DNA of 60,862 nucleotides, filler included, from Jimgerdemannia flammicorona (Eukaryota), in NCBI GenBank assembly GCA_003990765.1. It is 3 parts of 3 records of this genome, joined end to end, with 100 filler letters (N's around TTAATTAATTAA, not from the genome) between each part and the next. Parts side by side here need not be neighbours in the genome. Positions count along the whole stretch, not along the records: positions 40,645 to 60,862 come from RBNJ01001734.1; 2 more parts are not named here. One strand, 5' to 3'. Of the stretch, positions 2,294 to 55,119 are shown one piece after another (the stretch's first letter is position 1; each line of letters opens with the position of its first letter). Under the pieces are notes generated by a model. The model was not told the DNA's origin. It ran no database searches and saw nothing but the letters and a program-made list of their open reading frames with translations. The translations under genes and the position numbers were made by a program.

Positions 2294-3516
<1,223 letters not shown>

Positions 3517-7363: not shown

Positions 7364-10037
7364 TATGATAGTTGATCTGAATTAAGAATATGAATCAGAG
7401 AAATTAGATATTTGATTATGATATCTGAATCCAATTCCTGATATAGTATAGCCTTATAAATAGCAATTATTGTTATTTCACAACTGTTAAAGTTTTTGAA
7501 AATGTTGAACTCTTTGTAGATATTGAAGATTTTGCAGATATTAAAAGATTCAACACTTGCAAAAAGTGACTTATAACATAGTCATAACTTAGCTATCTTA
7601 TAGCTAACAAATTTGTATAAATAACCCAGTATCTTAGAATAAATAAACCTTAGATTGAAATAGTTCAAAGTAAAGAGAAAGTAAAGAAAATAGTAAGCCT
7701 GTGGGCAGATATACTTTGAACTCACCCACCTCTATATTTGAGGACTCTACAGAGTTAAAGAAGATCAAGTTTTCAAGATACAGAAATCTGACATACTTCC
7801 AAGGTTAAGCATCTGCTACATTATAACTTGGTGCCTATTAGTTGGTAATTTAAGATGAATCTCTCACTTTCAAGCTGAACAATGAATAACTACTACTATC
7901 CAAACAACTGTATGTATAACGAGACATCTAGACAAGATAGATATGAGACCACCAGTATTCCACAGTTATACTTTAGATAAATCAATCATCACCTTTATCA
8001 ATAATTTTGAGCAATATACTACTGTAAGAGGTCTGACAGCAAGGCAGCAAGTAACTCTCATGCTTTTTAGTCTGTAAGGACTAGCAAGAGTAGCATTCAC
8101 AGTAGCAATCTATATAGGAAATGTATGATACTATACTAGCAGCATAGAAGACCTGGCTCTGGACCACATACTATATAAATAAGATCAAGTAGGCACTGAA
8201 GGATTAGCTCAATACAACATATCAAGGAATGAGTAAGGATCCAAATATATTCTATACCAGAATCTGATATTAGATAATTCTTGCAGATTATGCTATCACC
8301 ATTAGAGACCAAGTAGTTGAAGTAATCTTTATGAAAGAAATCCACTCATAAATAGCTCTGGTCATCCACTCATCACCAATAGTCTTAGATCTGATACAGA
8401 AGATCACCTATGCTTAGCAATACTAGATAGCTAGACACTTATAAGACCATATAATAGAGAGAGTAACTGGAGTTAGAATCAAAACACCCAAGACAACTAG
8501 TATGATCTTTATCATAGTGATTAATTAAAATATACCTCAACTAAGAGCTACTGAATAACAGAGAAATAGTGACCCCATAGAGGAACTCATAAAGCATTTT
8601 GCTAAAATAACTGCCCACCTAGGAGATGTGATCAAGGAAATCAAAAGAAGAGACTGCCACCTAGTTCAGAAATTTACTGCTATCTCAGACAAAAAGAGAG
8701 ATACCTGTTACACCTGTGGAGAAGAGAACCACTACTTATATAAATGTATGAGTGAAACTAAGTACAAGGCACAGTCAAGCAATACTACTTAAAATAAGAA
8801 ACAGGCTAATATCATCATCTTCAAAAAGATTGGAGAATCAGATGAAGAGAAATGAGAGACCTATTCTGTACAGACCACTAAGAAGGATGTCTGCAAAGAA
8901 CCCTACAAGAGACCACCAGGGAGACTCAAGAAGAACTCTGTGAAAAAGCAGATAGAGACTGCTACAGAAAGTCAAGGTGAAAAAATGGATCAAGATATGG
9001 AGTTAGAATAGGCTGTTCAAGATATTATCCAAGAAACTACTCTAGCTAGTGAAGGAGAAAAGAAGAAGAAGCTTTGCAAAACCAAGACCTTTAAGTATAA
9101 TATCTTCAAGAATCTCAGTTAATAAAAGATCAATACAACCTTTGGTCAGCTTATAAAAATATCTACATTTAGATAGCAAATGAGATATAGACTTGCTGAA
9201 ACAACCAAGAAGTAAGAATGAAAGATAACTGAGACCAACAATGTTCAAGAAGACTCAGGAGAAGAAAGTAAAGATAACCATAAAACCTCTACCTATACAA
9301 CTTGTCAAATTAAAGATAGAGTCTTCAAGGCTATTATTAATACAGGAGCAGGAGAATGCCTCCTCAGTAAGAAAGTAACAAACCACCTAGATTGGGAAGT
9401 TGAAGAAGCAATCAAATTGGTATTTATCATAGCAGATGGTATAAGAGCCACATCTCTAGAAAAGATCTAAGATGTCTCCATCAAGTTCAGAAGAGCAACC
9501 ATCTCAGTAGATGTAATCATGACCAATACAACTAACTATAACATTCTCATTAGCAATCAATGGCTTCACAAAGCCAAGGTAATAATTGATCTAAATGCCT
9601 AGAAGATATAGATCATCTACTATAGACAGAAGATATAAATTCCCATCAATGTCAATAAAGGAGTTCTGCCCAAGATGGAGGAAGAAGAGAGTGAACAAAA
9701 GGAAGCCTATATAGTGACAACCCAGAAAAAGAAGAAAATCAGATAGGTGAGCAAAGAAGACTAGTGTAAGAAAATTATAGAAGGATATACACCACAAGAA
9801 GTCTGCCCCCATAGAATCTGAATATACTATATAGAGTATGTCAATGAATGTTACTAATGTATTGACAAAATCAAGGAAATCTACTACCAAAAAAGAGAGA
9901 AGGCCCTTGAGAAACAGGTAAGAGAAGAAAAGATAATAAAAGAAGAGGAGGAAGAGGATGATGAACCACTAGCTTTCCTTGAAGATAGTAATGATGAAGA
10001 GAAAATCAAGATCAAGATTTAGAAGATTCACTCTGAT
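7364..10037 (+). mobile_element. Ty3/gypsy family A, 5' portion (A1): LTR 7364-7825, PBS-like TGG at 7829, decayed gag, Zn knuckle and protease, ending at the start of the dUTPase
   Basis: Collinear with the reverse complement of 28670-31330; CYTCGEENHYLYKC near 8706; protease-like IINTGAGECLLS near 9335; cut at 10037 by a family B LTR. Confidence 0.88.
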
Positions 10038-24628: not shown

Positions 24629-25083
24629 TATAACATAGCAGATGCTTACTCTTGAAAGTACATCAGATTTCTATATCTTGAATACTTGATCTTTTTGACT
24701 CCTCAGAGTTCTTGGGATGCAGGGGTAGATGAGTTCGAAGTGTATCTGCTCATAGGCTTACTAGTTCCTTTGCTATCTCTTTGCTTTTGAACTATTTCAA
24801 TCTGAGGTTTATTTACTCTAAGATACTGGGTTATTCATACAAGTCTTGCTAGCTATAAGGTGGTTAAGTAATGGCTCATTCTGCAAGTATTGAATCTTTT
24901 AACATCTGCTAAGATTTCACTAATTGTGAAGATTCTAACATCTCCAAATGTTAAAGTTTCTGCACTTTGTAGAATATGGCTGCTATTTTATGAGGCTAAG
25001 CTATATTGGGAATTAGATTCAGATATTGGAATAAAATGTCTAATTTTCCTGTTTCATGTTACTAATTCAGATCAGCCATCACA
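24629..25083 (-). repeat. 3' LTR of A2
   Basis: Direct repeat of 30865-31330; begins TGTGA on the minus strand right after the PPT. Confidence 0.92.
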
Positions 25084-25489
25084 TCTTCCTTCTGAATAGG
25101 TGATTTGTCTCAGGAGTATCCTATTCACTTGAATTTCCAGGCTTCTATGATTGTATTTCCTTATACTGTGCGATTTGTATCATTACATTCTTCCAATGTT
25201 ATCTCTTGATATATCCAAAGTCTTCTGGGGTTACTCTTCAGAAATGGGCTAAGGCTAACTTGTTGTCTTTGAATAACTTATACACTCTTTTTGCAATTGT
25301 GACCTGAGTGTAGGAGAGCTGATATTCTCTGATCCAGTCTTCTTTTCCCATCTTTGGTTTTGAATTCAGTAGCTGTCTCAACTTGAAGTATTCCTGGTAC
25401 TCGATTTGGTTCTAGTAGGCCTTGAAATGTGAGATTTGTGACAGGTGTGTTTGCACTATACTTTGGATGCTGTCAAAGGATTCTTCCAT
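25079..25489 (-). pseudogene. Extra ~136-codon ORF between integrase and the 3' LTR of A2, function unknown
   Basis: MEESFDSIQSIVQTHLSQ..EYFKLRQLL..TIAKRVYKLFKDNKLALAHF*RVTPEDFGYIK..; the internal stops are all explicable as C-to-T changes of Gln/Arg codons. Confidence 0.55.
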
Positions 25490-25579
25490 TATTGGTGGCT
25501 CAGTAGAACACCACTATCTTTCTATGGCTTGCTGGGCAGCACTAGTAATTCTGAGGGCAGTAGTATTACTTCTGACTAG

Positions 25580-28500
25580 TCATAATTCTTCTTGAGTCAG
25601 TTTCAGTAGATGGTAGTGGGGATGATTGTGCCTGAGAGTTTTTGTAGCCAAAAGGTGGTCCCTTTTATATTTTGCACAAGGTAAGGTCCTTCCTACTTGG
25701 GCTCCAGTTTTCATGATCATTTGGCTTCTACTATATTCTGATATACCAGAACTTTGTCTCCTATCTTGATAATCTCCAGAGGTTTGTGGGTCTTTTCTGC
25801 ATTCTTCCATTGTAGTACCTGTGACTTTGTTATATAATCCTCAGCCTTCTTCCTGATTTGGTGTAGTCTCCATATTTCTCCATTCACATGTTTCCATATA
25901 GTATCTCTATTGGATAATAGGGTTTCTCAGGAACTTTCTTCTCTGAACAGTATTTCTCAAGAGGTAAAGTGGGTACTTTGTGATCTGATATTCCAGAGAG
26001 CAGATAATACTATTGGCAGATAGTGATACCAGTTTTCATAGTTATCACAGATCTTAGTAATAATATTCTTGAGGGTCTTATTAGTCCTTTCTGCTAGTTC
26101 ATTTACTTGAGGGTGATAGGCTGTGGTCTAAATGTGCTGGATCTTATACTTCTTATAGAGAACCTTGAAGTACTGGTTCACAAATTCTGTTCCTCTATCT
26201 GTAGTTACTTGTGTTGGGGTCTTGAACTGGCAGATTATTTCTTTGTGGAAGAAATTGGTGATTGACTGTGCATTGGCTTGCTTGAGAGGTCCTGCTTCTA
26301 TCCATTTTGTAAAAAGGTCTACGATAACAATGATATATTAGTTGCTAGTCAAGATCAAGGGTAGAAGGCTAATTACATCCATTGCTATGTGGGTGAATGA
26401 TACTGGTTCTATGTGTGCTGATCCTGGGGCTTGGTTTCGTTGGTCTTGTTTCTGTTTCTGGCATTTGTCACAGGTTTTGAAAAATTGTCTGATATCTTCC
26501 TCTATTCCTGGCCACCATATCATTCATCTTGCCTTGTCGTATGTATTCATTCCTCCTAGATGACCAAGTTCATTTACTGAATTCATTGCTTGCTCCTTCT
26601 TGTATTCTGGTATGACTAGTAGTTTTCCTTTCTTCAGTATTTCTCCATCAGTTTCGAATTGTTTCCATGTTCTGTTGATAATCATTTGTATCCATTCCTC
26701 CAGATGTTGGGGCATCTTTCACTGTCCCAGATATGTGATGATTCCATAGTAGAGCTCTTTATTCATATTTGATTTATTGGTTGGAGGTGTTTTGAAGTGT
26801 CTGTGAGAGAGCATCTGCATTGGAATTTGTTCTTCCAGGGCAGTGTACAATGGTTACATCATAGGCTTGTAACTTCATTATCCATCTGGTGTAGATTCCT
26901 TTGGATGGTCCAGTTGTCAGTAGCCAGGTGAGAGCTGAGTGGTCCATCTGAATGGTGAAGTGTCTTCCAGTCAGATAGTAGTGGAATGTTTCCACAGCCC
27001 AGATGACTGCAAGGTATTCTAACTTGTAGGATTCATATTCTTTTTCAGCTCCTTGGGTTCTGTGGCTAAGGTATGCAATGACATACTCTTTTTTGTCTTT
27101 CTTTTGAGCTAGGACCACTCCTAGTCCCTGTGCACTTGCATCTATCTAAAGGATAAACTCTTGAGTCCAATTGGGTCATCTGAGGATGGGTATCTGGGTC
27201 AGTCTGTCCTTGAGTTCATTAAATGCTTTTTGTTGTCTGCCAGTCCACTGGAACTTGGTGTCCTTCTTGTTGAGTTTGTAGATTAGACCTGCAATGTTGG
27301 AGAATCCTCTAATAAATCTATGATAGTAGGAGGACAGTCCCATGAAGGCTTGGGCTTCTATAACAGTGGTGGGCCTTGGGTATGCTGCTACTGCTTGTAT
27401 CTTGAGGGGGTCTGTGTATGTTCCATCTCGATTGATAATATGGCCAAGATAGGAGATCTCGATTTATGCAAATTTGCATTTCTTGGACTTGATGTACAGA
27501 CCATACTTTCTTAGTCTTTTCATTATCTGCTGTATGTGCTGCAGATGTTCCTCAGGTGTCTTGCTGTAGATAATTATATTGTCAACATAAACCATCATCT
27601 ATCTTCCCATGTCATAGTGGAAGATTTTGTTCATCATTCACTGGAAGCTTGCTGGTGCATTGTACATCCTGAATGGCATTTGTAGGTAGATGTAGGTTCC
27701 ATCTGAGGTGATGAAGGCTGACTTTTCACTTGCCATTTCTGTGAGTCCGATTTGGTGGAATTCTGAGTATAAGTCTAAGGTGCTGTAGTATTATACTTCG
27801 TCTCCCAGTGTTATAAGGATGTCACTGATGAGGGGAAGTGGTTGGCAATCCTTCTTGGTAACTGCATTGAGCTTGCTGTAGTCAACACAGAGTCTTGGGG
27901 TGAATTCTCCAGGCTTGCTTCCTTTTTTCAGAGCTAGTACAACTGGTGAAGACCAGGGGCTGCTGGCTTCTTTGATAATACCGACTTCTTCCATCTGCTT
28001 GATTTCTTCTCTGAGCCATTCTCAGTAGGCTGGCGGAACAGGTCTTGCCTTTTGGTAAATTGGTTTGGTGTCTCCAGTATCTACCTCATGATAGTAGTGT
28101 GGAGTCTTTCCTTTGATATCCTTGAAATCCATCACAAGGACATCCTCAAATTCATGGAGTATTTTCTTGAGTTCCTCCTTAAGTAGAAATTTATTTCCAA
28201 TAGTGTAACGGTGCTTATTTGTGGTTTTCTCCTTCTTATGCTCCAGTTCAGTGATCTTGGTACTGGCAGATACTCCTCTTTCTGTAGATCTGAATTCTTT
28301 CTTTCCTCTTTTCATTTCCTCCAAATTCTTGACTTCTATGATCCTTGGTTGTAGGATCAGAAAGATCAACATCTGTGCCAATCAGTCCTTCTTCTTGACT
28401 AGGAATGGGATTGTAGGATTGTGATTCCTAGTAATGAGCAGGATTTCTCCAGTATAGTCAGAATCAATGACTTCTCCTTCAATAGTAATTTTGCTTCTGG

Positions 28501-30800
28501 CCAGACTGCTTCTTGTCTTGAGGATCCTGATATGATCCTTTGGGATAGTCATCTCTAGTCCAGTTGTGAGTAGGGTGGTTGTCTGGGGTTCCAGTACAGC
28601 TTCTTCTACTATGGCAATGTCCATTCTGGCTGCATTTTCCGACTTGTATTCTGGCAAGACTGCATCAATCAGAGTAGGTCCTTCGAATCTTGACATTAAT
28701 TTCTTCTTCATCATCACTATCCTCTAGGAGGGCTGGTGGTTCATCATCTTCCTCCTCCTTCTCTTCTTTAATCTGTTTTTTGAGAGCTTTCTGTCTTCTT
28801 TCCTGGGGGCCTTCTTGATTCTGATGGTGCACTGGTAGTAATTATTGATATACTCCATACAGTACATCTTGATCCCATGAGGACAGACTCCTTATGGTGC
28901 ATAGCCTTCTGCAATCTTCTTATACCATTTTTCTTCACTCATCCATCCAACTTTCTTCTTCAGAGTAATCACCATATAAGCTTCCTCTTGCTCACTCTCT
29001 TCTTCCTCCATGTCAGGCAAGACTCCTTTGTTGATATTGATGAAAATTCATATCTTCTGTCCCCAGTAGGTAATTTGCATCTTCTGAGTATTGAGATTGA
29101 TTACTGCCCTGGCTTTGTGAAGCCATTGATTGCTGATGAGGATGTCATAGTTGGTGGCATTGGTTATGATTATATCTACTGGGATAGTTGCTCCTCCAAT
29201 CTTGATGGAGATATCTCAGATCTTTCCCAGAGGGGTGGCTCTTGTGCTGTCTGCTATAACAAACACCAACCTGGTTACTTCTTCAATCTCCCAACCTAGG
29301 TGGTCTGCTGCTTTCTTGCTGAGGAGACATTCTCCTGCTCCAGTATCAATGATGACTTCAAAGACTCTATCTTTGATTTGGTATGTTGCATAGGCAGAGG
29401 TTTTGCAATTGTCTTTACTTTCTTCTCCTAAGTCCTCTTGAACATTGTTGGCCTCAGTTATCTTCCATCCTTGTTCTTTGGTTGTTATGGTAAGTCTGAA
29501 CCTCATTTGCTGTCTGAATGTTAGAATTTCTGTGAGCTAACTGAAGGTTGCATTGACCTTTTATTGGCTAAGGTTCTTGAAGATATCATACTTGAAAGTC
29601 TTGGTCTTGCGAAGTTTCTTTTCTTTTTCTCCTTCACTGGCTAGAGTGGTTCCTCAGATAATATCTTAAACTGCTTGCTCCAGCTCCATATCTTGGTCTG
29701 TCTCTTTGACTTGGCTTTCTGTGGCAGTTTCCATCTACTTTTCTATTGGATTCTTCTTGGGTCTTCCTGGCAGTCTCTTGTAGGGTTCCTTGTGAACATC
29801 CTTCTTGGTAGTCTGAGCAGGATAGGCCTCACATTCTTTTCATCAGAATCTCCAATTTCTTCAAAAGTAATTGTATTGGCCTACTTCTTGTTTCATGCAG
29901 CATTGCTTGGTTGGGCCTTGTGCTTGGTTTTTCTCATACATTCATAGGAGTAGTGGCCTTCTTCTCCACAGGTATAGCAGGTACCTTTCTTCTTATCCGA
30001 GGTGGCAGCAAACTTCTGAACTGGGTGGCAGTTTCTTCCTTGGATTTTCTTTACCACATCTCCCAGGTGGGTGGTCATTTCAGCAAACCTCTTGACAAGT
30101 TCCTCCATAGGGTTGCTGTTCTTTTGCTGCTCTGTAGCTTTGGGCTGAGGTGTGTTTCAATTGATTATTATAGTAGAGATTACACTGGTTGCCTTGAGTG
30201 CTTCAATTCTGACTCCTGTGACTCTCTCCATTGTGTGGTCTTGTGGATGTCTGGCTATCCAGTATCACTGAGGATAGATAACCTTCTGTGGCAGATCCAG
30301 AATTACTGGTGATAAGCAGATAGCCATGGCTATTTTGGAGTAGACTCCTTTCATGAAGGTTGCTTTGGCTACTTGGTCTTGGATAGTATCAGCATAATCT
30401 GCAAGGATTATCTGGTATCAGATTCTTGTATAGAATGTGTTTGGATCTTCACTCATTCCTTGGCATATTGTATTGAGTTGATCCTTTAGAGCTTGCTTGA
30501 TCTCATCTGTATAGTAGGTAGTTTGAAGCCAGGTCTTCTGTACTGTCAGTGTAGCTTCAGCATCATTTCCTGTATGAGTTACAGATGTGAATGCTGCTCT
30601 TACAGGGTTTTGTAGGCTAAAGAGCATAAGGGCTACTTGCTGTGCTGCTGTCAGGGTCCTTACAGTGGCATACTGCTTGAAATTATCAATAAAGGTGATG
30701 ATTGATTCATCTGAGATATATCTGTAGAATACTGGTGGTCTCATATCCATCTTATCTAAGTATTGGGGCTTGGTTTGTATAGTTGTTCAGATAGTGGCAG
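25580..30800 (-). pseudogene. A2 gag-pol pseudogene
   Basis: CYTCGEEGHYSYEC; IIDTGAGECLLS; RT SPWSSPVVL..RLCVDYSKLN and YVDNIII; RNase H KLEYLAVIWAVETFHYYL..MDHSAL; integrase GHLGG..CDKCQ..AMDVI; many stops from C-to-T changes. Confidence 0.92.
28280..28710 (-). pseudogene. dUTPase domain of A2 (between protease and RT)
   Basis: Motifs 1-5: AARMDI, TRSSLA, EGEVIDSDYTGEI, LAQMLI, RGKKEFRST. Confidence 0.88.
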
Positions 30801-30864: not shown

Positions 30865-31330
30865 TGTAATGTAGCAGATGCTTACTCTTAAAAGTACATC
30901 AGATTTCTGTATCTTGAATACTTGATTTTTTTGACTCCTCAGAGTTCTTGGGATGCAGGGGTGGGTGAGTTCGAAGTGTATCTGCTCACAGGCTTACTAG
31001 TTCCTTTACTATCTCTTTGCTTTTAAACTCTTTCGATCTGAGGTTTATTCACTCTAAGATACTGGATTATTTATACAAGTCTTGCTAGCTATAAGGTGGC
31101 TAAGTAATGGCTCATTCTGCAAGTATTGAATCGTTTAACATCTGCTAAGATTTCACTGATTACAAAGATTCTAATATCTCCTAAATCTTTGCAAATGTTA
31201 AAGTTTCTGTACTTTGTGGAATATGGCTACTATTTTATGAGACTAAGCTATATTGGGAATCAGATTCAGGTACCATGATCAAATGTCTAATTCCCCTGTT
31301 TCATGTTACTAATTTGGATAAGCTGTTACA
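30865..31330 (-). repeat. 5' LTR of A2
   Basis: TGTAAC...ATTACA termini; followed by the PBS-like sequence. Confidence 0.92.
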
Positions 31331-35245: not shown

Positions 35246-37610
35246 TTATAGACTTTATTTAGAATTCTAGTATCAGAGTATAGCAAGATATACTGTATTA
35301 TTTCTTTACTAAGTATAAGTTGTCCTTGGACTATGGCTCCTGTAGTTGTAAGTCTCTATACTTGATATTATAATATAGCTATCTGACTCTAGTAGAGATA
35401 TCTCAGAGATAATTAATTTCTCTCTTTTCAGAAAGATCTAGGGCTTTAATAACATTGATGGCATTCTTCATCTACCTCTGATAAGTTGTATGTCTAATTA
35501 GAGTTAGGATATCATCTCTCAGATTATAGATCTTGAAGATCTTTTTTGTAGGTTTCTTGGCTTAGTTTTTTAAATCCTGGCTCTGCCAACTCCTCTCTTA
35601 AGTATATACTTTGTTATCTTAGCTGAGGTATATCTTATCATACTAGTAGGTTTAGCAGCTTGGGTTTTTTCCATAGTAATAGTATCCTATTGCTTAGAAA
35701 TACTGTTTTTAGTTATCAATTTCTTACTATCTTAGAAATCAGTAACTCTCTCTATCCTAGGTAGAGAGAAGGATAGCTAAGAGCTATTCTTCTATATAGA
35801 TGAAGTGATCTCTTCTATAGAATCATTTTATCAATATTATGATTATTTCTTAAAATATAATTATCTATATAATATTACTAGAGATACTGATTCATAGTTT
35901 CTTTATCTTTCTTATAAATCCTATAGATAGCACTAATAGCAATAGTCTTGGGAGAAATAGAAGACCATTTGAAGCTGATATCTTCTTAGCTAAAAGACTC
36001 TTTTCAGGTTCATTTCTTTTTTGAAACAATAGTGACTATACTTGATCTTTCTTCAGTATTTCAGAGATTATTATCTTCTGATAATATATATTTAGTAAGA
36101 ATCATCTTAAGAGATTAGCTCAGAAAGTCTTCTGGTTTAAGAACTTCTTCATTAGTTATTTTTTGTCTCCAGATTGCTTTTACTTCTACTGCTTCAGTTA
36201 TAGGTATCTTTAGTGAGTAATTGCATTTCTTCTTCCTTCTTCTATATTTTGAGCATTCTGAACTAGGAGAGGTTTTTGTGCTGATGATCTTAGAGAAGTG
36301 TTTAGAGTATTTATATCTTTTAAGAAAAGTGGAGCATTCTTTAGATTGTCCAGCAATGGCTCTAATTATAATAGAGATAGTATCTTATATCCATATATTA
36401 TCTTCTGATCTGTTATCTATTATATTGTTTTGCAGATAAAGTCTAGAGTTATTTTTATCTTCAGGTTCTTCCTCTTCCTTTATAGTTAATTCTTCACTAC
36501 TCACATATTCTTCTTAGATGATAACTTTTTACTTCTTTTTAGATTACTTAGAGCTATTTATCTTGATTTGGTACACTTTTTCTCTAGAGTTGAATTTGAG
36601 CACCTATTGATTATTATTATTGACTATATTCATTTCTTTCATCTAGTTGATATCAAGATTATTTATAAGTAATAGCTTTAGTAACAACAGTCTTTAGAAT
36701 AGAGAACTGGATGTATCTGAGAATAATAGTGATATTTTGCACTTCTCCTAAGGGTTGAGTTTGAGCTCTATCTGCTACTCTGATATTGAGGTTAGATATT
36801 CTATCAATGAGTTACTGAAGGAGTTCTATGAATCTTTTAATAATAATATAGATAGCTGCTCCTATATCAAAAAGGATTTTTACCTTCTTTTCTTTAATAT
36901 CTCTATGTAGGTATATATTGATATTTATATCTCTTAGTAGTTTAGATGATAATAGTTGATATAGGTTCTTATTGTAGAATTGAGACTCAGCCAGTACTAG
37001 ATCTAGTAGTTCTCAGTAGTATATTTCAAACTCCAGCAGCTATAAATTGTAAAATTACAAAAGAGGAACTTCTATCTTAGCTTTTGAATCTTTTTTTAGA
37101 CTTTATTGTAGATGTCTTAAGATATAGTCTTCAAAGTATACTTTTCTTAATTTTTGAGATTATTGACTCTTGTCTTTCTTGCTCCATCTCTTTAACTTCA
37201 GGTAAAGATATCTTTTATAAGCTGTAGTTTTAGAGATAAATGGTGAAGAAGATTGGAGAGGTATTTAGATCTGCTCTTTCTTATCTTCTCTATCTTCTTT
37301 CCAAATAGTTCTTCTGCCAACTATTCTAGATAGCCATCCTACTGGTCTTTTTCTTTATTCAATAGAGTAGACTTTTTTCTTAGAGAAAATCTTGATCAGA
37401 TATAGGTCTAAATTACTGTAGTTTTTACTATTAGTTTCTTCAAAGTCTTCTACAGAGTAGGTATCAGTCTTCTTATACTGAGTTACATTCTTTTAATTTT
37501 GTGGTTCTGAGTATCTTTGGTTACTTATTCCATTATTATATTCTGTAGTATAGTATCTGAACTATCTACAGTAGAAGTATTAAACTTGTGCTCTATCTTG
37601 GAATAGATAT

Positions 37611-37710
37611 TGTAACATGCCTGGCTCAATACAGATAAATTAAAAGGTTGAGAGTTGGTATAGTTTGGCTTGAGCCCCCAGTTACTTTGTCAAAATGTAA
37701 TAAAATATTC
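37611..37710 (-). mobile_element. Terminal 100 bp of a family D LTR (D3), inserted in gag of E and truncated at LINE C3
   Basis: tgtaacatgcctggctcaat..tttggcttgagcccccagttactttg matches 31902-32000. Confidence 0.8.
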
Positions 37711-40644: not shown

Positions 40645-41008
40645 TTCAGTTTGACTCAGCTTCATGATCAAGCAGGTGATTTCCAGATTTGTTCAGAGGT
40701 CGCGTGTGATTTCAGTGGCTTGTTCAGAGGGTGACATGTAATTTCGGTGGCTTGGAGGTTGTGCGCTTACAACTCTCCCCTTCTTAGCTTTTGATATTCT
40801 CATCGGAGCCTTCTAATTTTGTTCAGTGGTACAGAGACAATAGGCTTGCTTTCAGTTTTGCCATTTTTCCAGAGGATCAGTATTCTTGTCTTGGTTTGCT
40901 GAGTTCTTGATTTGGTTTGTGATAATTATACTTGTTCGGGAGGATAATATATAGTATGTTCAGATAGGTGTGGAGTATTTGGTTCTAGTTGTTCAAGGAA
41001 TCATATTC

Positions 41009-44000
41009 CTAAACTAGGTCAGTAGCATTCTGGAGATTGGTCTTGGGTTCCCAGGTTGCATCATGGATTGGGTAACCTTTCCATTTGACAAGGTACTCAG
41101 GATGGTTCTTGTTGCCACATTTGTTGAGGATTTGTTCAACTTCGTACTCTTCTTGGTCATTAATGATGACAGGTACAGGTGGTTTGGTGGTCCGGTTTGG
41201 AAATAGCTTGTCATCATTCTCATTATATCGCTTGAGATGTTGAACATTAAAGACTGGGTGAATCTTAATGGTGTTCAGTAGCACCAGTTTGTAGGAGGTT
41301 GGAGAGACTTGTGTGATGACTTCAAATGGTCCAATGAACTTGCTGTTTAGCTTAGTAGATGGTCTGTGCTTGAGGTTGTCAACTTGGTATCCTCTGATGT
41401 CTAGTAGGACTTTTTCTCCAATATCAAAAGTTTCTTCTCAGCGGTGTTGGTTAATATACTGTGATTGTTATTCTTGAGCTTATGATAAATTCTCGATGGC
41501 AATCTGGCTTAAATTGCGCATTTGGAGTAAGAATTCTTCAACAGCTTCAACTGTGGAGGGTTCTTCAGTGGTTTGGATAAGTGTCAAAGGGGTGTTTGGA
41601 TTTTGTCTCATGTTGGTGAAGAATGGGGTCATTCCAAGAGAGGCTTGTTTGCTATTGTTGTAGGCAAACTCAACTGTAGTGAGGTGTTCATGCCAATCAT
41701 CTTGTTTGTAGGAAACATAGTTCCTTAGTATTTATTCCAGAGTTCGGTTCATTCTTTCAGTTTGGCCATCAGTTTCTAGATGAAAGGCTGTGGATAGTGC
41801 AAGTTTTGTTCCAAGGTGTGTATGGAGGGCTTTCCAAAAGTAGCTGGTGAATTTCGGATCTCGGTCACTAACAATGATCTTAGGAAGACCATGATAGCGG
41901 AAGATGTTGTCAAACAAGAGTGTGGCTATGTCTGGTGCTATTGCAGTAGTGGTAGTAGGCACAAAGTGGGCTTGTTTGCTGAGATAGTCTATAAAGACAA
42001 CAATTGCATCTTTCCCATTCTTGGTTCGGGGTAGTTGTACAATGAAGTCCATAGAGATTTGTTCCCAATTTGCAGATGGTACTGGGATAGGGTGAAGTAA
42101 GCCGGGTTTTGCTAGTGTTGAGAACTTGTTTTGTTGGCAGGCATCACAGGAAGTGATATAGGTTTTGAGTTGATCTGCCATATAGGGCCAATAGAAGTTC
42201 CGGGAGATAACTTCATAGCATTTGTCAAATCCTAAATGTCCAGCTGTAGGGGTATCATGACATTCGAATAGGATAGTCCTTCAGAGGTCTCGGTTGTTTG
42301 GGACATACAATCTGTCCTTGTAGTAGATAGCATTGTCCTTAAGTTGGTATTGATTGTACATACCAGGTATGCTTGTCAGCATCATTATTGTTCAGGATTT
42401 CTTGGAGTACCTGAGCTTTCTTATCATCAGTACATACTGCAATGATTTGTTCCATGATAGTGTTGGTAACCAAGGTCAGAGTTTGGATAACCTCTTCGAT
42501 TGGTGGTCTGGAGATTGCATCAGCAACAATATTTTCCTTGCCAGGGTGGTACTGGATTTCGTAGTCAAAGTTGGTGAGGATTTTCATCCATCTGGCTTGC
42601 TTTTGGGAAAGGGTAGCCTGTGTCTTGATATTGACTAATGACTTGTGGTCAGTCAATATGGTGAAGTGTGCTCTTTCTAGATATGGTCACCATTTGATCA
42701 GAGTGTCTACGATGGCTAGCATTTTCTTCTTGTGAGTTGCGTAGTTGATTTTGGCATCATTGAACTTGTGGGAGTGATAGGCCACAGGGTGTCCTTCTTG
42801 CATGAGCACTGCTCTAAGAGCTAGGTCAGAGGCATTAGTAGTGACTTCATATGGTAGGGCAGGGTTTGCTGCTTGAAGTACTGGTGTGGTTATCAGGGCA
42901 TCTTTCAGTGCTTGAAAGGCAGTATCTTGCTCGGGTCCCCAATTTACAAGATTGTTGAAGTCTTTCTCTTGTTTCATGGTCCAGGGTTGTTCTTGTTTCT
43001 TGCTGTGCTTGGTCATTTGGGTGAGGGCAGTAGCGATTTTAGCAAAGTTGGCAACAAATCGCCTATAATAGTTTGCTAATCCCAGGAATGACTGGAGGTC
43101 TTTCAGCTTCTTGGATCTGGGCCAATCCTTGATTGCAGAGATTTTGCTGGAGTCTACTTTGATTCCATTTGGGGTGACAATGTGTCCAAGGAATTGAATT
43201 TCTTTCAGGAGAAATTCGCACTTGCTGAGTTTTGCAAAGAGTCAGTTTTCTTGGAGTTTCAGTAGGACTAGTTCAAGGTGTTCAAGATGTTCCTCCAGGG
43301 TTTTGCTGAAGACTAGGATGTTGTCAATGTAGACAACAACAAATTTGTCCAGATATGGGTGCAGAATAGTATTCATCAATGTCTGGAAGGTTGCTGGGGC
43401 ATTAGTTAAGCCAAAGGGCATAACTAGGAACTCGAAGTATTCATAGTGAGTTCGGAAAGCTGTCTTGTAGATGTCTTCTTCTTTCATGACAATTTGCCAG
43501 TAACCATTTCACAGGTCAAAAGAGCTCATGAATTGTGGGTTGGTGAGCCTATCAAATATTTCATCAATCCTCGGTAGTGGGCAACAGTTCTTGATGGTCT
43601 GTTCATTGAGATCGCGGTAGTCAATGCACATTTGCAGGTCTCCTCCTTTCTTGACAACAAAGAGGACTGGTGCACTATAGGGTGATATGCTGGGTCTGAT
43701 GAATTCTTGTTCTAGGAGTTCATCAATTTCTTTCTTGAGTGCATTGATTTCTCTCGGAGACATGTGGTAGATTGACTTGAAGGCTGGTTTGGCATCTGGA
43801 ATAGTCTTGATTGCATAGTCTACTGCTCATTTGAGAGGTAGGCCTTTCAGGAGCTTCTTTGGGAATATGTCTCGGAATTTCTGGAGTAGTGGTCTGACAT
43901 GGCTGTCAACTTTGGAAAAATCTTCTTCAGAGTTCTCGGGTTCTCCTTTGGATGGTCGGATGGAGATGGCAAAGAGAGGGCATTTCTTGGCCAATTTCTT

Positions 44001-47000
44001 GAGTTGTAGCTTGTTGATGTGGGTGATCTTTAGTCCAGGGTCACTAGAGTTGAGTGAGTCCTTTTCACCTTATAGTTTGAAGTTGTGGCGTCCTTTCTTG
44101 ATGGTCAGAGAATGGTTTACCCAATCAATCATGGGGTTTTCTTGTTTTAACCATAGAGTCCCAAGGATGATTTCATTGTCAGAAAGTGGTACGATTTGGA
44201 GAGTAACATGTACTCAGTAGTCGCCAATTTGGAAGAGTAGATTGTGGACTTCTTTGCAAATAACATGTGAGGTTCCATCAGCTGTAGCAACTGCTTGAGT
44301 TTGCTGTACTGGAGAGGTGAAGACCTTGAGTCTGTTGGTTGTCTCTTCATTGATGAAGTTGCCTGAGGTGCCACTCTCTATCATAATCTTGACAGGTGCT
44401 CTGTTGACAAAAGCCTTAAGGGTGAGCAGTTTGTCTGATCCAATGGTGGTGATTTCAGTTGTAGGAGCCTTTCTTCTGTTGGTTCTTCTTTGAGCCAGTT
44501 CGTTGACACAAGTGAAGCAATCGTCAATCATTCGGGAAGAGTACATTCTAATACCATGAGGGCATCAGCCACTTGGTACATATCCATCTTCAATCTTCTT
44601 GTAGAATTGTTCTTCTTTGTTTATAGTAGGTTGGGCTGGGGCTTTGTTTGATGAGCCAAATCCTTTGGATCCTCGGATGGTGGGCAGTAGTTCAGGGACT
44701 TCCTTGACTATCAGGGTTGACTCAATTTTTTCGAATAGGATCTGGGTGATGCAGAAGCCAATAGGGATCTTGAAGGATGTCTAACTGTGGTTTCGAATGA
44801 GGACAATAATTTCGCCTGTGTAATCCTCATCAATGACTCCTCCTTCTACTGAGAGTTCTTTTAATGCTAGGCTGCTGCGACAGCATATTCTTCCAACATG
44901 TCCTTCAGGGATTTGGATACTGATTCCTGTATAGACTTATTTGACTTCTCGGTTGGAAACTATAGCTTCTTCGGCTACATACAGGTCATATCCGGCTGCT
45001 TTTTGACTTCCTTTGGTTGGGGCCTTAGCAGTTTGTCTTAACTTGACAAAGTCTAGTGTTCTGGTGGTCAGGTTGTTGAGGTGGTGAAGAGTGGTAACAG
45101 TTGCTCGTATTGCTGTTCGGGGTTTTCGGTTGGAGCAGGCACTGGCTATGTGTCCTGTCTTTCAGCAATAAAAGCATGCTCCACTTCTTCAAAGTTCATT
45201 CCTTTCGCCTTCAGTAAGTTTCTTGAAGGTACTGGGCTGGGTGGGTTCAGGATTTCTGGGTGTCCATGAGGTGGATGTGGAGGGAGCTCGGGATGCTTCA
45301 TGCTTGGGTTCTTCTTTCTTGGTCCAAGTCCTTTCCTTGTTGTTAAATTGTCTTCAGGGCAGAATTGGTCCAGCTGTTAGGATTCGCTTGACCATAGTCT
45401 TGATTCTTGCCAGGCACCATTGTTGGTGGTCACAACCAACTGGACAGCCTTGCTCTCAGATTTTTCTAGTAAGCCATTCAGGCAGGGCATCAAATAAATG
45501 TTCTGCTCTTGTACCATTTCGTACTTCATCATTGGTAATGTATCCTAGGCCAACAGTGTTCAGGAGTGACTCAAGTTTTGTACAGAAGGTTTCGAATTCT
45601 TCTTTGCCATGTACATCAAATTTGAGGTTGCGGAGTTTTACTCGAGATTCAGCAATCATGGTTTCACTGCAGTATTGGGCAATCATGAGTTGTTTGAGTC
45701 CAGGGGCTGCAGGATGGGCTCCATATCCTGGGGCATTGTTTGCTGCATTCTGAGCAACTACTGCAGGTCGGGTATCCCATGTGAGGGGTTTTTCAGAAAG
45801 GGTTCGCCACCATTCTTTGGCAGGTCCTTGGAAGAATGTAACAACTCAGTGGACAAAGGCTGTAGTGGTAGTAAAGACTTGTTCCAGGGTGTGGTCTTGA
45901 TTGTTTGTCAGAACGCGGTCAGCAACTCACTCATTGGTCCATTGATTGGCTTCAAAGTTGGTATCAACTACACTAATAAAGCTTTGGACTTCTTGTGCAG
46001 TTCCATTGAAGGTAGGTAGGCTCAGATTTTTGGTAGGTCAGGTCTGTTCAGCTAGGGCAGTGATGGTTGCTGCCATTATATGTAGCTACTTGGGCTGTGA
46101 GGGCTAGAATCTGTTGGTTCGCCATGTTGTTTACTGGAGGCGGTTGGACTGCAGATAGTGGTGTTACTGGTACTACTTGAGGTACTGGTGCAGAGTGTGA
46201 TGGGGTTCATTGGGTCTGTGTAAGTTGCTGGAGTAGTAGTTGTGGATCTGGAGTAAGGGCTTGATAGATAACTGTTTGTTGCTGTGTAGGTGTATTCTGT
46301 CCTGATGGAGGTGCTTCTCCTTCGGTAGTATATCTGAGATCGAATTCAGTGAGATACTCCTCCTCTTCTTCGGTTTGGTCCCCATGTAATTGGGTTTACT
46401 CAGCATCAAAGTATATGGAATCAGTTATATATCTGATTTCAGATGGACTTAATTCAAAGTCAAGTTCAGGTTCGGTATTGGTTTCAGATTCAGGTGGGCT
46501 GTAGCAGGTCCTGCTTGTCAGGTAGTTGGTGAAGGGTTTCTCTTGCTTCTTCCTTAAGGATATGGCAGGCCTTACTGTTCTGGAATCGGTAGTATAAGGC
46601 AGTCTTGGTCCTGGTACAGTGAAAGTCGGTAGAGTTGAGCTACTTGGCTACAGAGGCTTGGGCTTCGTGAGGAACTAAGGCTAGAAAGACTGCTGCTGGT
46701 TGTCCTAGGTCGCTCAGATTTGTGGAGCTGACAAAACTCTTGTTGAGAAGAGTAAAGAAGGCTTCAATAAGACCTTCTTCATCCTGACTTGCTGGGTGTA
46801 GTGCAAGGAGTTCAGTGAATAGGGATTCGCCTATTTGCTGGTTTAACTAGAGTACTTCTTTCTTTGAATAAAGTTTATCCCACTTGTTGCAGGTGTAGAG
46901 GTCAAATTGTCCTTGTACATCAGATTCAATTCTCTCCAGATTGTCAGATAGTTCAAGATAAATTCCAGTTCAGAGGTTGGGCTTTATACCAACTTATAGG
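41009..47000 (-). pseudogene. B1 gag-pol pseudogene: gag, CCHC knuckle, dUTPase, CPHG module, protease, RT, RNase H, integrase, chromodomain
   Basis: [96 protein letters not shown]. The gag start is approximate. Confidence 0.93.
44655..45060 (-). pseudogene. dUTPase domain of B1 (between the nucleocapsid knuckle and the protease)
   Basis: KAAGYDLY; TGISIQIPEGHVGRI; RSSLA; EGGVIDEDYTGEI; ITQILF; RGSKGFGSS. Confidence 0.93.
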
Positions 47001-47076: not shown

Positions 47077-49119
47077 TGTAAGAGGGTTACTTTTTAGGGT
47101 AACTGTTACATAGTTCTGGAAAGGTTTTCTGGATATTCTAGATGTTCTGGAAGACTGTTTTCTTATGGTCAAGATCAATTTCGTATGGAGTACATCCTCT
47201 ATGCTTATTGATTTCAAGATCAGGTTGATGTCTCAACCAAAGTCCTTTTTTAGACTAGTTCTGGATGTTCAGGATTTTCTATATTTCGGAAGTTCAAGAA
47301 ACTAAGACCAGCTTAGTTGAATCGGCGTATTGCTGCAGACAATACCCAATTAGGAAATTTCGTGACAGGGTTAGGAGTAGGACCTAACAGGAAGTAGATT
47401 TACTTAAGAGTGGTTTGTGGGTTATGGAATAGGTTTATTTGCTATTCATGATATTGCTATACTAGGAGTAGTTGTGTAAAGGGGTATTGTGGGGAAGTAT
47501 TCAGGAATGTTCTTGTGTGTTTGAGTCTGTTCAAGTCTGAGATTTTGAGGTCTGGGGGAGGGGGTATTTATACTAGTGATGGGCTATCTGGACTATGCTA
47601 AATATGGATGTAGCACTAAGTGCTTTGCTGAGTCAGAATGCAGTCACGTAGTACAAGTGTGATCTGATATGTCAAGAGATTGTCTGACTGCTGAGTCAGT
47701 TCACAGTCACATTGTACAAGGCTAATCTAACTATACTATGACTGCTAGGCTATTTATGGGTTCAGGCGCTGTCTGGGTAGTCCTTGATGATATCACCATC
47801 GATTGCATCATCTCTGATGAAGTAGTCATCTAGAAATAATGGTTCGCAGATTACTTCTCCTTATTCGCTGAGGTAATAGTACATTGGAACTTCATCTCCG
47901 TCCCACAGAATAGCATCATCTGTCTCATATGCTGGATAAGGTGTTGGTGGGTGGAGGAGGGGTGCATCATCTTCGCTTTCGTCAGATTCACTGTCTGCAT
48001 ACCTTCTATAGGTTATGGCACTGTAAGTTGCAGGGTTATAGTATGCTGGCAGCTGTGGTTCATATCATTCATACTCAGGTGGTGGAGTGGTTGGTTCAAT
48101 CTTGAGGGTTGTCTGGAGGTACAGGTTGTGTTCTCCGGTCTCTTCATTGTAGTTGAAGTAATCGGGGGTGAATGCGGGTTGGTATTCATGCCAGTGGTCA
48201 TTGTCCCAATAAGTCTCGTATGTGGTTATGAACTGTTGTAAGTTCATCGGCAAGGTTGGCAGTGTGATCAGAGTTGGCAGAGATACTTGGCTAGAGGTCA
48301 TGTTAGTGTCAGAGGGATCATTGTCTTCTGCTTCATCTTTATCGAAGTGGATTATACATATCATAGACATCCTTCATGGCATATCCAACTTGAGGTATTT
48401 GCAGGATTTGATCATTGGAGTGTGGGAAGGTTCTATCTGTGGTTTCGATGTACTCAAGGTACTTGTGGTTGAGTTCTTGTATCATGTCATCGATTTGGCC
48501 ATAGGACAGGGTAGCAACCATTTCGCTGGTAGTGACTCGGAGGTGGGGAATAATGGTACTGTACTCATAGAAGAGTTCTCGATGTTTGCGGGCAATGAGC
48601 TTCTGGTGTTGAGACATCTGGGTAATGTCTGTATCATGGTGGTGATTGACCATGTCTTCCAGGAGGCAGCTGATCTGGTAGTAGCTTGAGATTTGTCCGA
48701 TTCGGTGGGCCTCGCTAAGCATGTTCAGAGTGTTCCATCGGGCTTCCACGAAGTAGAGGGGTGCCAGGCTATGGATATTCATGAGGGGCAGAGGGGGTGT
48801 GGCTTGGTTGACAATGGCATTCCAAATGTCAGCGCGGATATGGTTGTAGATCTCAGTGGTCATGTTTGTGTATTTGGAAGTTGTGGTTGTTGTTTGTTTT
48901 GGTTCTCTGATTCGACGCATCTCGGTGCTCGGTATATATGCATTTGGTCCTGATTGGTAAGATTCTGTTTGTGTAATTCTTGTGTTCTGTGACTTCGTAT
49001 TGACTCAGCTTTGTGCGCTGTGACTTCAGTTTGACTCAGCTTCATGATCGAGCAGGTGATTTCCAGATTTGTTCAGAGGTCATGTGTAATTTTGGTAGCT
49101 TGGAGGTTGTGCACTTATA
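47077..49119 (-). repeat. 5' LTR of B1, 2043 bp
   Basis: T(G>A)TAAG...CTTACA inverted termini; homologous segments at 10038-11408, 40645-40771, 49120-49461 and 51801-52927. Confidence 0.9.
47861..48920 (-). pseudogene. LTR-encoded ORF of family B (~350 codons reconstructed), function unknown
   Basis: ORFs 48339-48920 and 48065-48370 plus the downstream frame join after removing a 4-bp duplication at 48353-48360; the paralog near 52520-52545 is in frame there; one internal TGA at 48065-48067. Confidence 0.7.
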
Positions 49120-49461
49120 AAACCACTCTTAAGTAAATCCGCTCCCTGTTAGGTCCTACTCCTAACCCCATTACGAAATTTCCTAATTGGGTATTGTCTG
49201 TAGCGATATTCCAATTCAACTAAGCTGGCCTTAGTTTCTTAAACTTCCTGAAATATGGAAAATCCTGAACATCTAGAACTAGTCTGAAAAAAGGACTTTG
49301 GTTGAGATGTCAACCTGATCTTGAAATCAATAAGCATAGAGGACATACTCCATATGATATTGATCTTGACCATAAGAAAACAGTCTTCCAGAATATCCAG
49401 AACCTCTAGAAAACCCTTCCAGAACTATGTAATGGTTACCCTAAAAAGCAACCCTCTTACA
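49120..49461 (+). mobile_element. 3' end of another family B LTR (B2), into which B1 inserted in the opposite orientation
   Basis: Reverse complement of ~47077-47416, ending CCCTCTTACA; no PBS follows. Confidence 0.88.
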
Positions 49462-52400
49462 TTCAGTCTTTCTTAAGACTAGCAAACGATTATTGATAAT
49501 TTGTTACAAACTTTATCAAGATCACTACTATCCTTATCTAACTGATCAAGTATAGTAAAAAAAAAGAACAGCCCTGAACCACAAAGTAAGAAAACGACTT
49601 CAACAATCTTGTAAATTGGGAACCTAAACAAGATATAGGCTTTTAAGCTTAAATAATATCCTAATAACTATCTCAGCTCTTCAAGTAGTAAACTCTGTCT
49701 AACTTATGAAATTATCACTAATGTCTCTGACCTAGCTCTTGGAGTAGTACTTATGTAAGAAGGACATCATATAGTCTATTATTCTTCTAAGTTTAATAAT
49801 ACTGAATCAACTATAATGTATAAGAAAGAAATATTAGCCATTATAGACACTCTGATTAAATGACATCCATGCTTTATATCTCCAGATCACTAATTAAAGA
49901 AGTTATACAAACTCTCACCTTAGTTATCAACTCAATCATAGAATAAATTATTACAGCATACACTAATGATAAAGAAGCTTAAGTATTCTGAGAAATCCTA
50001 AGTAGTAATGATATCAATAAGTACTCTTAATATCATCAATAATATTTGATGGACAGTACTATCTATTATAAGAATAGATTATATATTCCTAATAATTGAG
50101 ACCTCTAAAGGACCATTCTATTTAAATATCATAATCCCCCTATAGCTGGACATTTAGAATTCAATAAATGTTATATAGTTATTTCTCAAAACTTTTATTA
50201 ACTCTGAATGGCAGACTAGTTAAAGACCTATATCATTTCCTATGATATCTACTAATATAATAAGTCCTCAACTCTAGCAAAATCTAAATTACTCTATACC
50301 TTCTGCTAATTGAGAACAAATCTCTATAGACTTCATTATACAACTACCCTGAACCAAGAATAGAAAAGATGCAATTGTTGTCTTTATAGATTACTATAGT
50401 AAATATGCCTACTTTATACCTACTATTACTATCACAACTCTATCTAAAATTACTATACTCTTATTTTACAATATCTTCTACTATTATGATCTTTCTAAAT
50501 TATCAGTAACTGAGATACAAAATTTACCAGCTATTTTTGGAAAGCTCTATATATATACCTTGAAACAAAACTTATACTATCTATAGCCTTTTATCTTGAA
50601 ACTGAAATTCAAACTGAAAGGATGAACTGATGTGTTTCCTATAGACAAGATGATGGCATGAATACCTTACTGCTATTAAGTTTGCCTATAATAATAGAAA
50701 CAAGCATCTCTTGGAATAATCCCATTCTTTACCAATATAGAATAAAATCTGAACACCCCTCTGATCATTATCAGAATTATTAATAAACTCTCCACTGTTG
50801 AAGCTATTGAAGAATTCCACTCTAAATGTGCCACTTAAGCCAGATTGCAATTGAGAATTTATCTTGAGCTCAAGAGCAATAATCATAGTATATCAACTAG
50901 TATTACCAAGAAGAAACTTTTGATATTAGAGAAAAAGTTCTATTAGATATCTGAGGATATTAAGTTGAAAACCTCAAGCATAGACCCTCAATAAAACTGA
51001 ACAGTAAGGTCATTTGGACCATTCAAAGTTATAGTATAAGTCTTTCTAATATTTTACAAATTAGTATTATCTAATACTATCAAGATTTGCCCTATCTTTA
51101 ATATTCAATATCTTGAGTGATATAATGAAAATGATGATAAACTATTTCCAAATTAAACTACAAAACCAACAGTACCTATTATTGTTAATGATTAAGAAAA
51201 ATAAGAAACTGAACAAATTCTCAACAAATATAGCCACAAGATCTATCCAGAATACTTAAACAAATGGAAAGATTACTTAATCCATAATGCTATATAGGAA
51301 TCCAAAGAATATTGTTGACTTAGTTCAAGAATATAACTTCTTAAACAATTGGTTGAATATTTCAATATCAATTATCTCTATATAATATATTACTCCTCTC
51401 TAATACTATTAAATACACACTTACCTAAAATTATTATGAACAAAATTGAGGACTCAGCAAGTTAAGATAAAAAGAAATACTAACTCTTTAAAAAATAGTA
51501 AAACTGAAAGACAGCCTATCTCTCTATATTACCAGTAGGATATAGGGTATAAATATTTAAGAAGATTTCTTAAAGAAAATTATTCTACAGTAAATAACAT
51601 CAGAATCACTTCTGGAATATAGTATTGAACTTATAACTCTTTAATATATAAATCCAATATATTAGGCAACTATACTATGAGCATACTACTTTCTGAGAAA
51701 AGAAAATATTACTGAACTTTTAACCATTCAAATAGTGTAACAATACTTGATAAAATTAGAAGACTTTGATGAGAATATCAAAAACTAAGTAGAGGAGAGT
51801 TGTAAGTACAAAATCTTCTAGTTATCAAAATTACACATTACTCTCAGAACAAACTTAGAAATCACATACAAGATTATGAAGCTGAGTCAAACCAAAGTCA
51901 TAGATTATAAAGCTAAGTTAACTCAAAGTAATAGAATATAAGATATACAGAAATGGAATCTTACCAATTAAGACTAGAAGTATCTATACTAAATATATAA
52001 TATGTTAAAATAAAGAACTACAATAAACAATAACAATAACTCTCAAATATATATCCAACCATAACAACTAAAGTCAATAACTACATCTATACTAATATTT
52101 GAAATTCTATTATAAACCAAGCTGCAGTACTCCTATCCCTCATGAATATTTATAGTCTAATACTCCTTCATTTTATAATGTTCAATGGAATACTCTGAAC
52201 ATATTTAGTGAGACCCACCAAATTAGACAAATCTCAAGCTACTACTAGATAAGCTATCTCTTAGAAGATATAGTTAACTCTTAATACTAGAAACTCATCT
52301 CTTATAAATACTGAGAACTTTTTATGAGTACAGTATCTTTATTCTCTATTTCCAAGTTACTACTGCTGAAATAGTTGCTATACTGACCTATAACCAAATC

Positions 52401-55115: not shown

Positions 55116-55119
55116 CAGA

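What the first reader, a model, noticed from the sequence alone, without database searches (positions are those of the whole stretch)
44505..44605. Shared unrecognised Cys/His module (KIxxGYxPxGxCPHGIxMY..C-x-x-C) travelling with the dUTPase
Seen: B1 has YKKIEDGYVPSG*CPHGIRMYSSRMIDDCFTC after its dUTPase. A2 (~28828-28918) has KIAEGYAP*GVCPHGIKMYCMEYINNYYQC and A1 (~9772-9861) has IIEGYTPQEVCPHRI*IYYIEYVNECY*C, both before the dUTPase. E has a weaker match (YPNSN*TYNLSEVDEECHQC, ~35452-35511) also upstream of its dUTPase. A and B otherwise differ in gag, LTR and integrase tail. Inference: a small CHCC zinc-binding domain shuffled between families together with dUTPase, in swapped order. I do not recognise it as a named domain.
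Basis: partly seen in the sequence, partly recalled or inferred. Interest (0 to 1): 0.78.

Follow-up and report, generated by a model that had tools for sequence, protein, structure and literature searches.

The report
Unnamed zinc module beside retrotransposon dUTPase
Two distantly related, dead jumping-gene families of a fungus share a small, unnamed cysteine/histidine domain that lies between their protease and their dUTP-destroying enzyme; it is real, conserved and probably binds zinc, but it is a modest addition to the known parts of such elements.

Summary
The module is real. B1, A2 and A1 score 70, 55 and 34 bits against at most 0.7 in 20 shuffled windows. It is about 50 residues, C-x-H-x12-C-x2-C between two helices, under purifying selection, folds confidently and has no Pfam, PDB or fold match. 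It always lies between protease and dUTPase: DUT-module-PR in chromovirus B, PR-module-DUT in non-chromoviral A. It is the most similar part of A2 and B1 (43%, against RT 40%, dUTPase 36%, protease 18%), which points to lateral exchange. The link to dUTPase is one-way: 14 of 19 module proteins carry dUTPase, but 0 of 19 other long dUTPase proteins and 0 of 28 family-C loci carry the module. Joint transfer with dUTPase is not shown. The scan found this module before, elsewhere in this genome.

The parts
44475..44621 (-). B1 copy of the Cys/His module (core 44508-44603), one in-frame stop; between dUTPase and protease
   Evidence: 69.7 bits
44649..45029 (-). B1 dUTPase, in frame with gag and upstream of the module
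   Evidence: Pfam PF00692 E 2e-32; frame
45135..45176 (-). B1 gag CCHC knuckle
   Evidence: Pfam zf-CCHC E 0.005, under its cut-off
44088..44438 (-). B1 aspartic protease, directly after the module
   Evidence: Pfam RVP_2 E 1e-8
42567..43652 (-). B1 reverse transcriptase and RNase H
   Evidence: Pfam RVT_1, RT_RNaseH
41000..42295 (-). B1 integrase (H2C2, core, SH3) with C-terminal chromodomain at 41000-41146
   Evidence: Pfam
28808..28942 (-). A2 copy of the module, decayed (one Cys read as Tyr, one stop); between protease and dUTPase
   Evidence: 55.2 bits
29063..29410 (-). A2 aspartic protease, upstream of the module
   Evidence: Pfam RVP_2 E 2.5e-8
28283..28660 (-). A2 dUTPase, downstream of the module and an acidic linker
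   Evidence: Pfam PF00692 E 2e-18
25400..27910 (-). A2 reverse transcriptase, RNase H and integrase; no chromodomain
   Evidence: Pfam
29938..29979 (-). A2 gag CCHC knuckle
24636..25076 (.). A2 terminal repeat (one copy; 89% identical to 30872-31323)
   Evidence: self-BLAST
30872..31323 (.). A2 terminal repeat (other copy)
   Evidence: self-BLAST
9756..9893 (+). A1 copy of the module, strongly decayed; the element breaks at about 10038, a few codons into the dUTPase
   Evidence: 34.4 bits
35930..35986 (-). Decayed candidate of a distant, shorter relative of the module core in element E, in the protease-dUTPase linker
   Evidence: better-kept relatives L166-L184; hhalign probability 87% over 22 columns
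35452..35511 (-).

Best explanation
A zinc-stabilised mini-domain of about 50 residues (helix, knuckle hairpin, C-x2-C helix) inside the single Gag-Pol reading frame of some fungal Ty3/gypsy elements. It probably arose in the non-chromoviral lineage, whose protease-dUTPase linkers hold arrays of small Cys/His clusters. It then passed by recombination into a chromoviral lineage, where it sits right behind the dUTPase. Most likely job: after the protease cuts the polyprotein, the module stays on the dUTPase and tethers or positions the trimer inside the particle by protein contact, so that dUTP is removed where reverse transcription runs. It is helpful, not essential. Shown: conservation, selection, position, single frame, patchy spread over the RT tree. 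Inferred: zinc binding (about 0.85), lateral exchange (about 0.7), tether function (about 0.4).
For: Ligand pattern: C, C, C invariant in 14 of 14 rows and H in 13 of 14, at pairwise identities of 14-69%. In own-genome copies the only changes at the four ligand sites are to Tyr, as in the gag knuckle control. Selection: A versus A' module pN 0.27 / pS 0.89, like the dUTPase (0.245 / 0.685) and below the flanking linkers (pN 0.32-0.36); within A' pN 0.009 / pS 0.198. Model pLDDT 88.9, pTM 0.69. Module identity A2 versus B1 is 43%, above RT 40, dUTPase 36, RNase H 31, integrase 24 and protease 18; B groups with module-less C and P0033-P0035 (99/99), apart from A and A'. 14 of 19 module proteins hold a dUTPase; in the 10 with dUTPase first the gap is only 1-24 residues. 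Gag and pol share a frame in 15 of 15 B loci and 4 of 6 A loci. Charge is near neutral in most rows, which fits protein contact better than nucleic acid binding. Precedent for a zinc domain fused to a dUTPase: betaretroviral NC-dUTPase (PMC4531489, passages; PMC1802613, abstract).
Against: No binding or cleavage data. The dUTPase works without the module in family C (0 of 28 loci, same gag-DUT-PR position), in the host gene L091 and in 0 of 19 other long dUTPase proteins. The module lies next to the protease as constantly as next to the dUTPase. In the 4 proteins with module first the gap is 37-89 residues. L122 has the module with no dUTPase within about 110 residues upstream or 215 downstream. 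The A, A' and B dUTPases do not form a clade in the best tree. High identity over 50 residues can come from strong constraint rather than transfer.
Confidence: 0.4

Rival explanations
1. The module serves the protease or polyprotein processing: a folded spacer or regulator between a trimer-forming dUTPase and a dimer-forming protease (oligomer states recalled), which times protease activation or prevents a symmetry clash.
For: It lies between protease and dUTPase in both orders; about 30 residues separate it from the B protease.
Against: Family C and P0033-P0036 join dUTPase and protease directly with no module. The A and B proteases are only 18% alike, a poor fit for one conserved partner surface.
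Confidence: 0.22
2. The module binds nucleic acid, as a second nucleocapsid-like finger that anchors the dUTPase to the RNA or cDNA.
For: A basic helix follows the last Cys in A and B. NC-dUTPase precedent (PMC1802613, abstract). An extra Zn knuckle follows the dUTPase in rotifer Juno elements (PMC5408684, passage).
Against: Charge is near neutral in most of the 14 rows. The spacing is not CCHC. B already has its gag knuckle in frame just upstream of the dUTPase.
Confidence: 0.18
3. The module has nothing to do with the dUTPase. It is one of several Cys/His cassettes that pile up in a permissive linker and act on a host protein (for example in silencing or degradation); it rides beside the dUTPase by linkage.
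For: The E lineage and L122 hold arrays of three or four Cys clusters in this linker, one pair shared between them (blastp E 4e-9). L122 ends in a stretch like the start of P0017, which leads into another module (E 1.5e-11), so the module may be repeated. 4 short proteins (P0009, P0011, P0012, P0019) show it without dUTPase.
Against: No full-length element with the module and without a dUTPase was found. In 10 proteins it follows the dUTPase within 24 residues.
Confidence: 0.18
4. Chance likeness or an artefact of decayed sequence.
Against: Scores of 34-70 bits against 0.7 in shuffles; 14 genuine outside hits among 18; purifying selection.
Confidence: 0.02

Closest known systems
dUTPase-carrying fungal Ty3/gypsy elements (PosPlaTy3-3, -4 and -5 of Postia placenta; Phanerochaete elements; Tuber Tmt1), from PMC2864245 (passages read)
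   Same: dUTPase inside pol at variable positions, including the N-terminus of Pol and between PR and RT; independent captures are proposed there.
   Different: The passages name no Cys/His domain beside the dUTPase. Its supplements (structure table, dUTPase tree; old .doc files) were not read and may bear on this.
Juno LTR retrotransposons of bdelloid rotifers, PMC5408684 (passages read; supplement searched, 694 characters of text, no hit)
   Same: dUTPase between PR and RT 'followed by an extra Zn knuckle': a zinc motif next to a retrotransposon dUTPase.
   Different: Order PR-DUT-knuckle, not seen here. 'Knuckle' usually means CCHC (recalled), which this module is not.
Betaretroviral NC-dUTPase fusion (M-PMV, MMTV), PMC4531489 (passages) and PMC1802613 (abstract and outline)
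   Same: A zinc-finger domain covalently joined to a trimeric dUTPase in a retroelement particle: the model for what the module may work like.
   Different: There the partner is the gag nucleocapsid itself, joined by frameshift. Here it is a separate non-CCHC domain, on either side of the dUTPase, in a single gag-pol frame.
Small CHCC or treble-clef zinc fingers (Pfam zf-CHCC and the treble-clef class; names and features recalled)
   Same: Four ligands C, H, C, C; a knuckle hairpin followed by a C-x2-C helix in the model.
   Different: No zf-CHCC match at E up to 10. No structural match above Z 3.4. An extra N-terminal helix and a G-Y-x-P turn.

Membership tests
Ty3/gypsy LTR retrotransposon (host elements A2, B1) | pol order protease, RT, RNase H, integrase | tested here: met
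   Pfam on both elements
Ty3/gypsy LTR retrotransposon (host elements A2, B1) | Long terminal repeats | tested here: inconclusive
   A2 has direct repeats at 89% identity; the ends of B1 were not resolved
Chromovirus (B1) | Chromodomain at the integrase C-terminus | tested here: met
   PF00385 E 6.5e-16
Chromovirus (A2) | Chromodomain at the integrase C-terminus | tested here: not met
   No chromodomain in the integrase frame; RT apart from B and C
Retroviral-type CCHC zinc knuckle (module) | C-x2-C-x4-H-x4-C spacing | tested here: not met
   Spacing is C-x-H-x12-C-x2-C; no zf-CCHC match
Pfam zf-CHCC and other named zinc fingers (module) | Profile match over the curated cut-off | tested here: not met
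   Only scattered weak matches (best zf-C5HC2 E 0.005 in 3 of 11 rows; VMAP-M14 E 0.0009 in 1 of 14); no family hits more than 3 rows
Treble-clef zinc finger fold (module) | Knuckle plus helix binding one zinc, superimposable on known members | tested here: inconclusive
   Secondary structure fits; Foldseek and VIA-align give no match, best Z 3.4; ligand geometry could not be read from the model
Zinc-binding domain (module) | Binds zinc | not testable with these tools
   Inferred from four conserved ligands
NC-dUTPase fusion of betaretroviruses | The fused zinc domain is the gag nucleocapsid | tested here: not met
   The gag knuckle is separate and lies upstream in both A and B
Juno extra Zn knuckle | Sequence homology to the Juno knuckle | not tested
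   No Juno sequence was available from the tools; supplement search empty

The most novel reading that the evidence does not exclude
The module founds a family of portable C-x-H/C-x2-C adaptors that binds and switches the retroelement dUTPase trimer, or couples it to protease activation. It has been swapped between chromoviral and non-chromoviral Ty3/gypsy lineages independently of the enzymes on either side, giving retrotransposons a regulated uracil-control step that has not been described.
Probability: 0.15. Interest if true: 0.65.

Novelty: new variant of a known kind. Interest (0 to 1): 0.35.

Why it matters
It adds an unnamed domain to the Ty3/gypsy parts list. It also gives a case in which a small non-enzymatic domain is the best-kept part shared by two distant lineages, in mirrored order. 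If it tethers or regulates the dUTPase, it would help explain why some retrotransposons keep a dUTPase although the host has one, a point PMC2864245 calls unclear. The domain is small and easy to express, so zinc binding and partners can be tested at once. The elements here are dead and the function is unproven, so the gain is modest.

Tried and rejected
Named-family searches found nothing consistent: Pfam, PHROGs, PDB sequences, Foldseek against PDB and viral models, VIA-align over 48,161 chains, best Z 3.4, and the ESM Atlas, best 0.79 and 0.78. These blanks do not prove a new fold.

4 of 18 profile hits (P0010, P0016, P0018, P0020) were dropped as repeat or propeller matches without the C-x2-C. 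Pattern hits in 10 bacterial loci, 3 viral loci and 1 metagenome locus (L123, L124, L185-L196) are chance, with no C-x2-C after the CPH.

Co-capture with the dUTPase was neither shown nor rejected. That tree holds no outside module-bearing dUTPases, leaves out family E and three near-duplicates (P0029, P0040, P0041), and does not hold P0042, which fell under the script's length filter. The question stays open.

The first two own-genome searches were read in a wrong frame. They still fetched true A and B copies, but their scores say nothing on the module. The second structure job was not used.

Paper searches for a prior description found none; one search gave 0 papers. The library lacks most subscription journals, and Repbase and GyDB were not searched.

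Full report
Setting. The window joins three contigs of a 231-Mb genome. A complex I NUIM exon near 3000 matches fungal entries best. CpG falls from about 107 per 2 kb in the gene region to 0-31 in the repeats, so the elements are decayed. B1 (minus strand) reads gag knuckle, dUTPase, module, protease, RT, RNase H, integrase, chromodomain. A2 reads gag knuckle, protease, module, dUTPase, RT, RNase H, integrase, with no chromodomain. A1 is a more decayed A copy that breaks at about 10038, a few codons into the dUTPase.

The observation. A profile made from outside proteins alone finds them at 69.7, 55.2 and 34.4 bits, against at most 0.7 in 20 shuffled windows. Better-kept relatives of E (L166-L184) show a C-x-H-x10-C-x2-C core further upstream in that linker. 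It aligns with the module core at hhalign probability 87%, E 4e-6, over 22 columns. It beats shuffles of its linker in 500, 500, 499 and 492 of 500 tries for four copies. I chose that site after seeing it, and it lacks the N-terminal helix, so I call it a probable distant relative. Its window remnant is at about 35930-35986.

Spread. A profile of 11 open A and B copies found 18 proteins among 1.84 billion representatives; 14 are genuine and 4 are repeat artefacts. Two word-based searches added five more. Of these 19 module proteins, 14 hold a dUTPase: 10 with dUTPase first (gap 1-24 residues) and 4 with module first (gap 37-89). The other 5 are short: P0003 ends inside the module, and P0009, P0011, P0012 and P0019 show no dUTPase. 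Wherever a protease is also visible, the module lies between it and the dUTPase. A third own-genome family, A', has the A order (26 of the 30 loci). No genuine copy turned up in bacterial or viral collections; these scans use short exact patterns and are not sensitive.

The link to dUTPase is one-way. Of the 30 best own-genome dUTPase loci, 28 belong to family C (gag-dUTPase-protease), one is a host-type gene and one is B; only the B locus has the module. Of 20 long proteins nearest the B dUTPase, only the B-family P0001 has it; 0 of the other 19 do, among them four PR-DUT-RT gypsy proteins. Metagenome contig L122 has the module with no dUTPase in its 373-residue frame, followed by further Cys clusters. 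One pair of these clusters is shared with the E linker (E 4e-9), and the contig ends in a stretch like the start of P0017, which leads into a module and a dUTPase. So in the non-chromoviral lineage the module is one of several Cys/His cassettes in this linker and may be repeated. That makes this lineage the likelier source (inference).

Constraint and history. The three Cys are invariant in 14 of 14 rows and the His is kept in 13 of 14. In own-genome copies, changes at the four sites go only to Tyr, as in the gag knuckle control. Between A and A' (234 of 252 copy pairs kept after a filter for frame breaks) the module has pN 0.27 and pS 0.89, the dUTPase 0.245 and 0.685, and the linkers pN 0.32-0.36. 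Between A2 and B1 the module is the most similar part: 43%, against RT 40, dUTPase 36, RNase H 31, integrase 24 and protease 18. On the RT tree B joins module-less C and P0033-P0035 (99/99), apart from A and A'. Lateral exchange explains this best; strong constraint with repeated loss is the alternative. Whether the dUTPase moved with it is open. A-B identity is 38%, B-C 39% and B-host 41%. The best tree separates A and A' from B, but holding them together is not rejected (p-AU 0.285). That tree lacks the outside module-bearing dUTPases.

Structure. AlphaFold2 on the 14-row alignment gives pLDDT 88.9 and pTM 0.69: helix 7-16, a short hairpin around the C-x-H, helices 34-39 and 41-55. No fold match was found, nor any consistent family match. 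Zinc binding is inferred from the ligand set.

Mechanism. Gag and pol share one frame in 15 of 15 B loci and 4 of 6 A loci, so the module is made as part of the polyprotein. I favour a zinc-stabilised tether that stays on the dUTPase after processing and positions it in the particle (0.4). The grounds are the short gap behind the dUTPase, selection as strong as on the enzyme, near-neutral charge, and the NC-dUTPase precedent (PMC4531489, passages; PMC1802613, abstract and outline). Rivals: a regulator or spacer for the protease (0.22), a nucleic-acid finger (0.18), a host-facing passenger (0.18). None was tested directly.

Known work. dUTPase at variable positions in fungal gypsy elements is in print (PMC2864245, passages). 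An extra Zn knuckle after the dUTPase is reported for rotifer Juno elements (PMC5408684, passages and an empty supplement search). PMC3248453 (passages) has no mention of dUTP or zinc in its main text. Searches found no description of this module; supplements of PMC2864245 were not read. Earlier notes of this scan report the same module on other pieces of this genome; they are not independent support.

Verdict. A real, unnamed, selected Cys/His domain shared by distant gypsy lineages in mirrored order. 'Travelling with the dUTPase' holds as an association, not as a shown joint transfer. New variant of a known kind; interest 0.35.

Noticed in passing
L180, L183 and other E relatives (L166-L184); window about 35700-36400 minus: The E protease-dUTPase linker (about 400 residues) holds four Cys/His clusters: two C-x2-C...C-x(1-2)-H, the module-like core and a C-x-H-x5-C-x2-C. 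The first pair is shared with metagenome contig L122.
   Followed up: partly
L122:2-1120 and P0009, P0017: A short W-C-x-C-x2-C motif follows the module in both L122 and P0009, and a 'GW...W-x-R' stretch occurs twice in L122 and at the start of P0017, which suggests tandem repeat units.
   Followed up: partly
window about 45410-45450 minus (B1 gag) and P0008: A second Cys/His cluster (G-C-x-H-x2-W-C) in the B-type gag, upstream of the knuckle, is kept between B1 and P0008 (seen by eye).
   Followed up: no
P0026, P0029, P0041: dUTPase fused behind a stretch that looks like a copia-type RNase H end (recalled likeness, not tested).
   Followed up: no
window 48339-49004 minus: A 221-residue open frame inside a repeat (47077-49120) with further copies at 10191-11407 and 51800-52926; possibly an accessory gene in or near a terminal repeat.
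   Followed up: no
window 11800-20090, 37700-40540, 52900-60860: Several decayed copies of another repeat family at 64-71% identity, with a frame (37984-38655) that looks like a non-LTR reverse transcriptase (recalled likeness).
   Followed up: no
window 2941-3621 minus: Exon of the complex I NUIM (TYKY) subunit; best matches are fungal.
   Followed up: partly
whole window: Sharp CpG loss in repeats (0-31 per 2 kb against about 107 in the gene region), with many stops and Cys-to-Tyr changes, pointing to C-to-T decay of repeats.
   Followed up: no
L091 (G000:C6287): A stand-alone, host-type dUTPase gene, open and without the module.
   Followed up: partly
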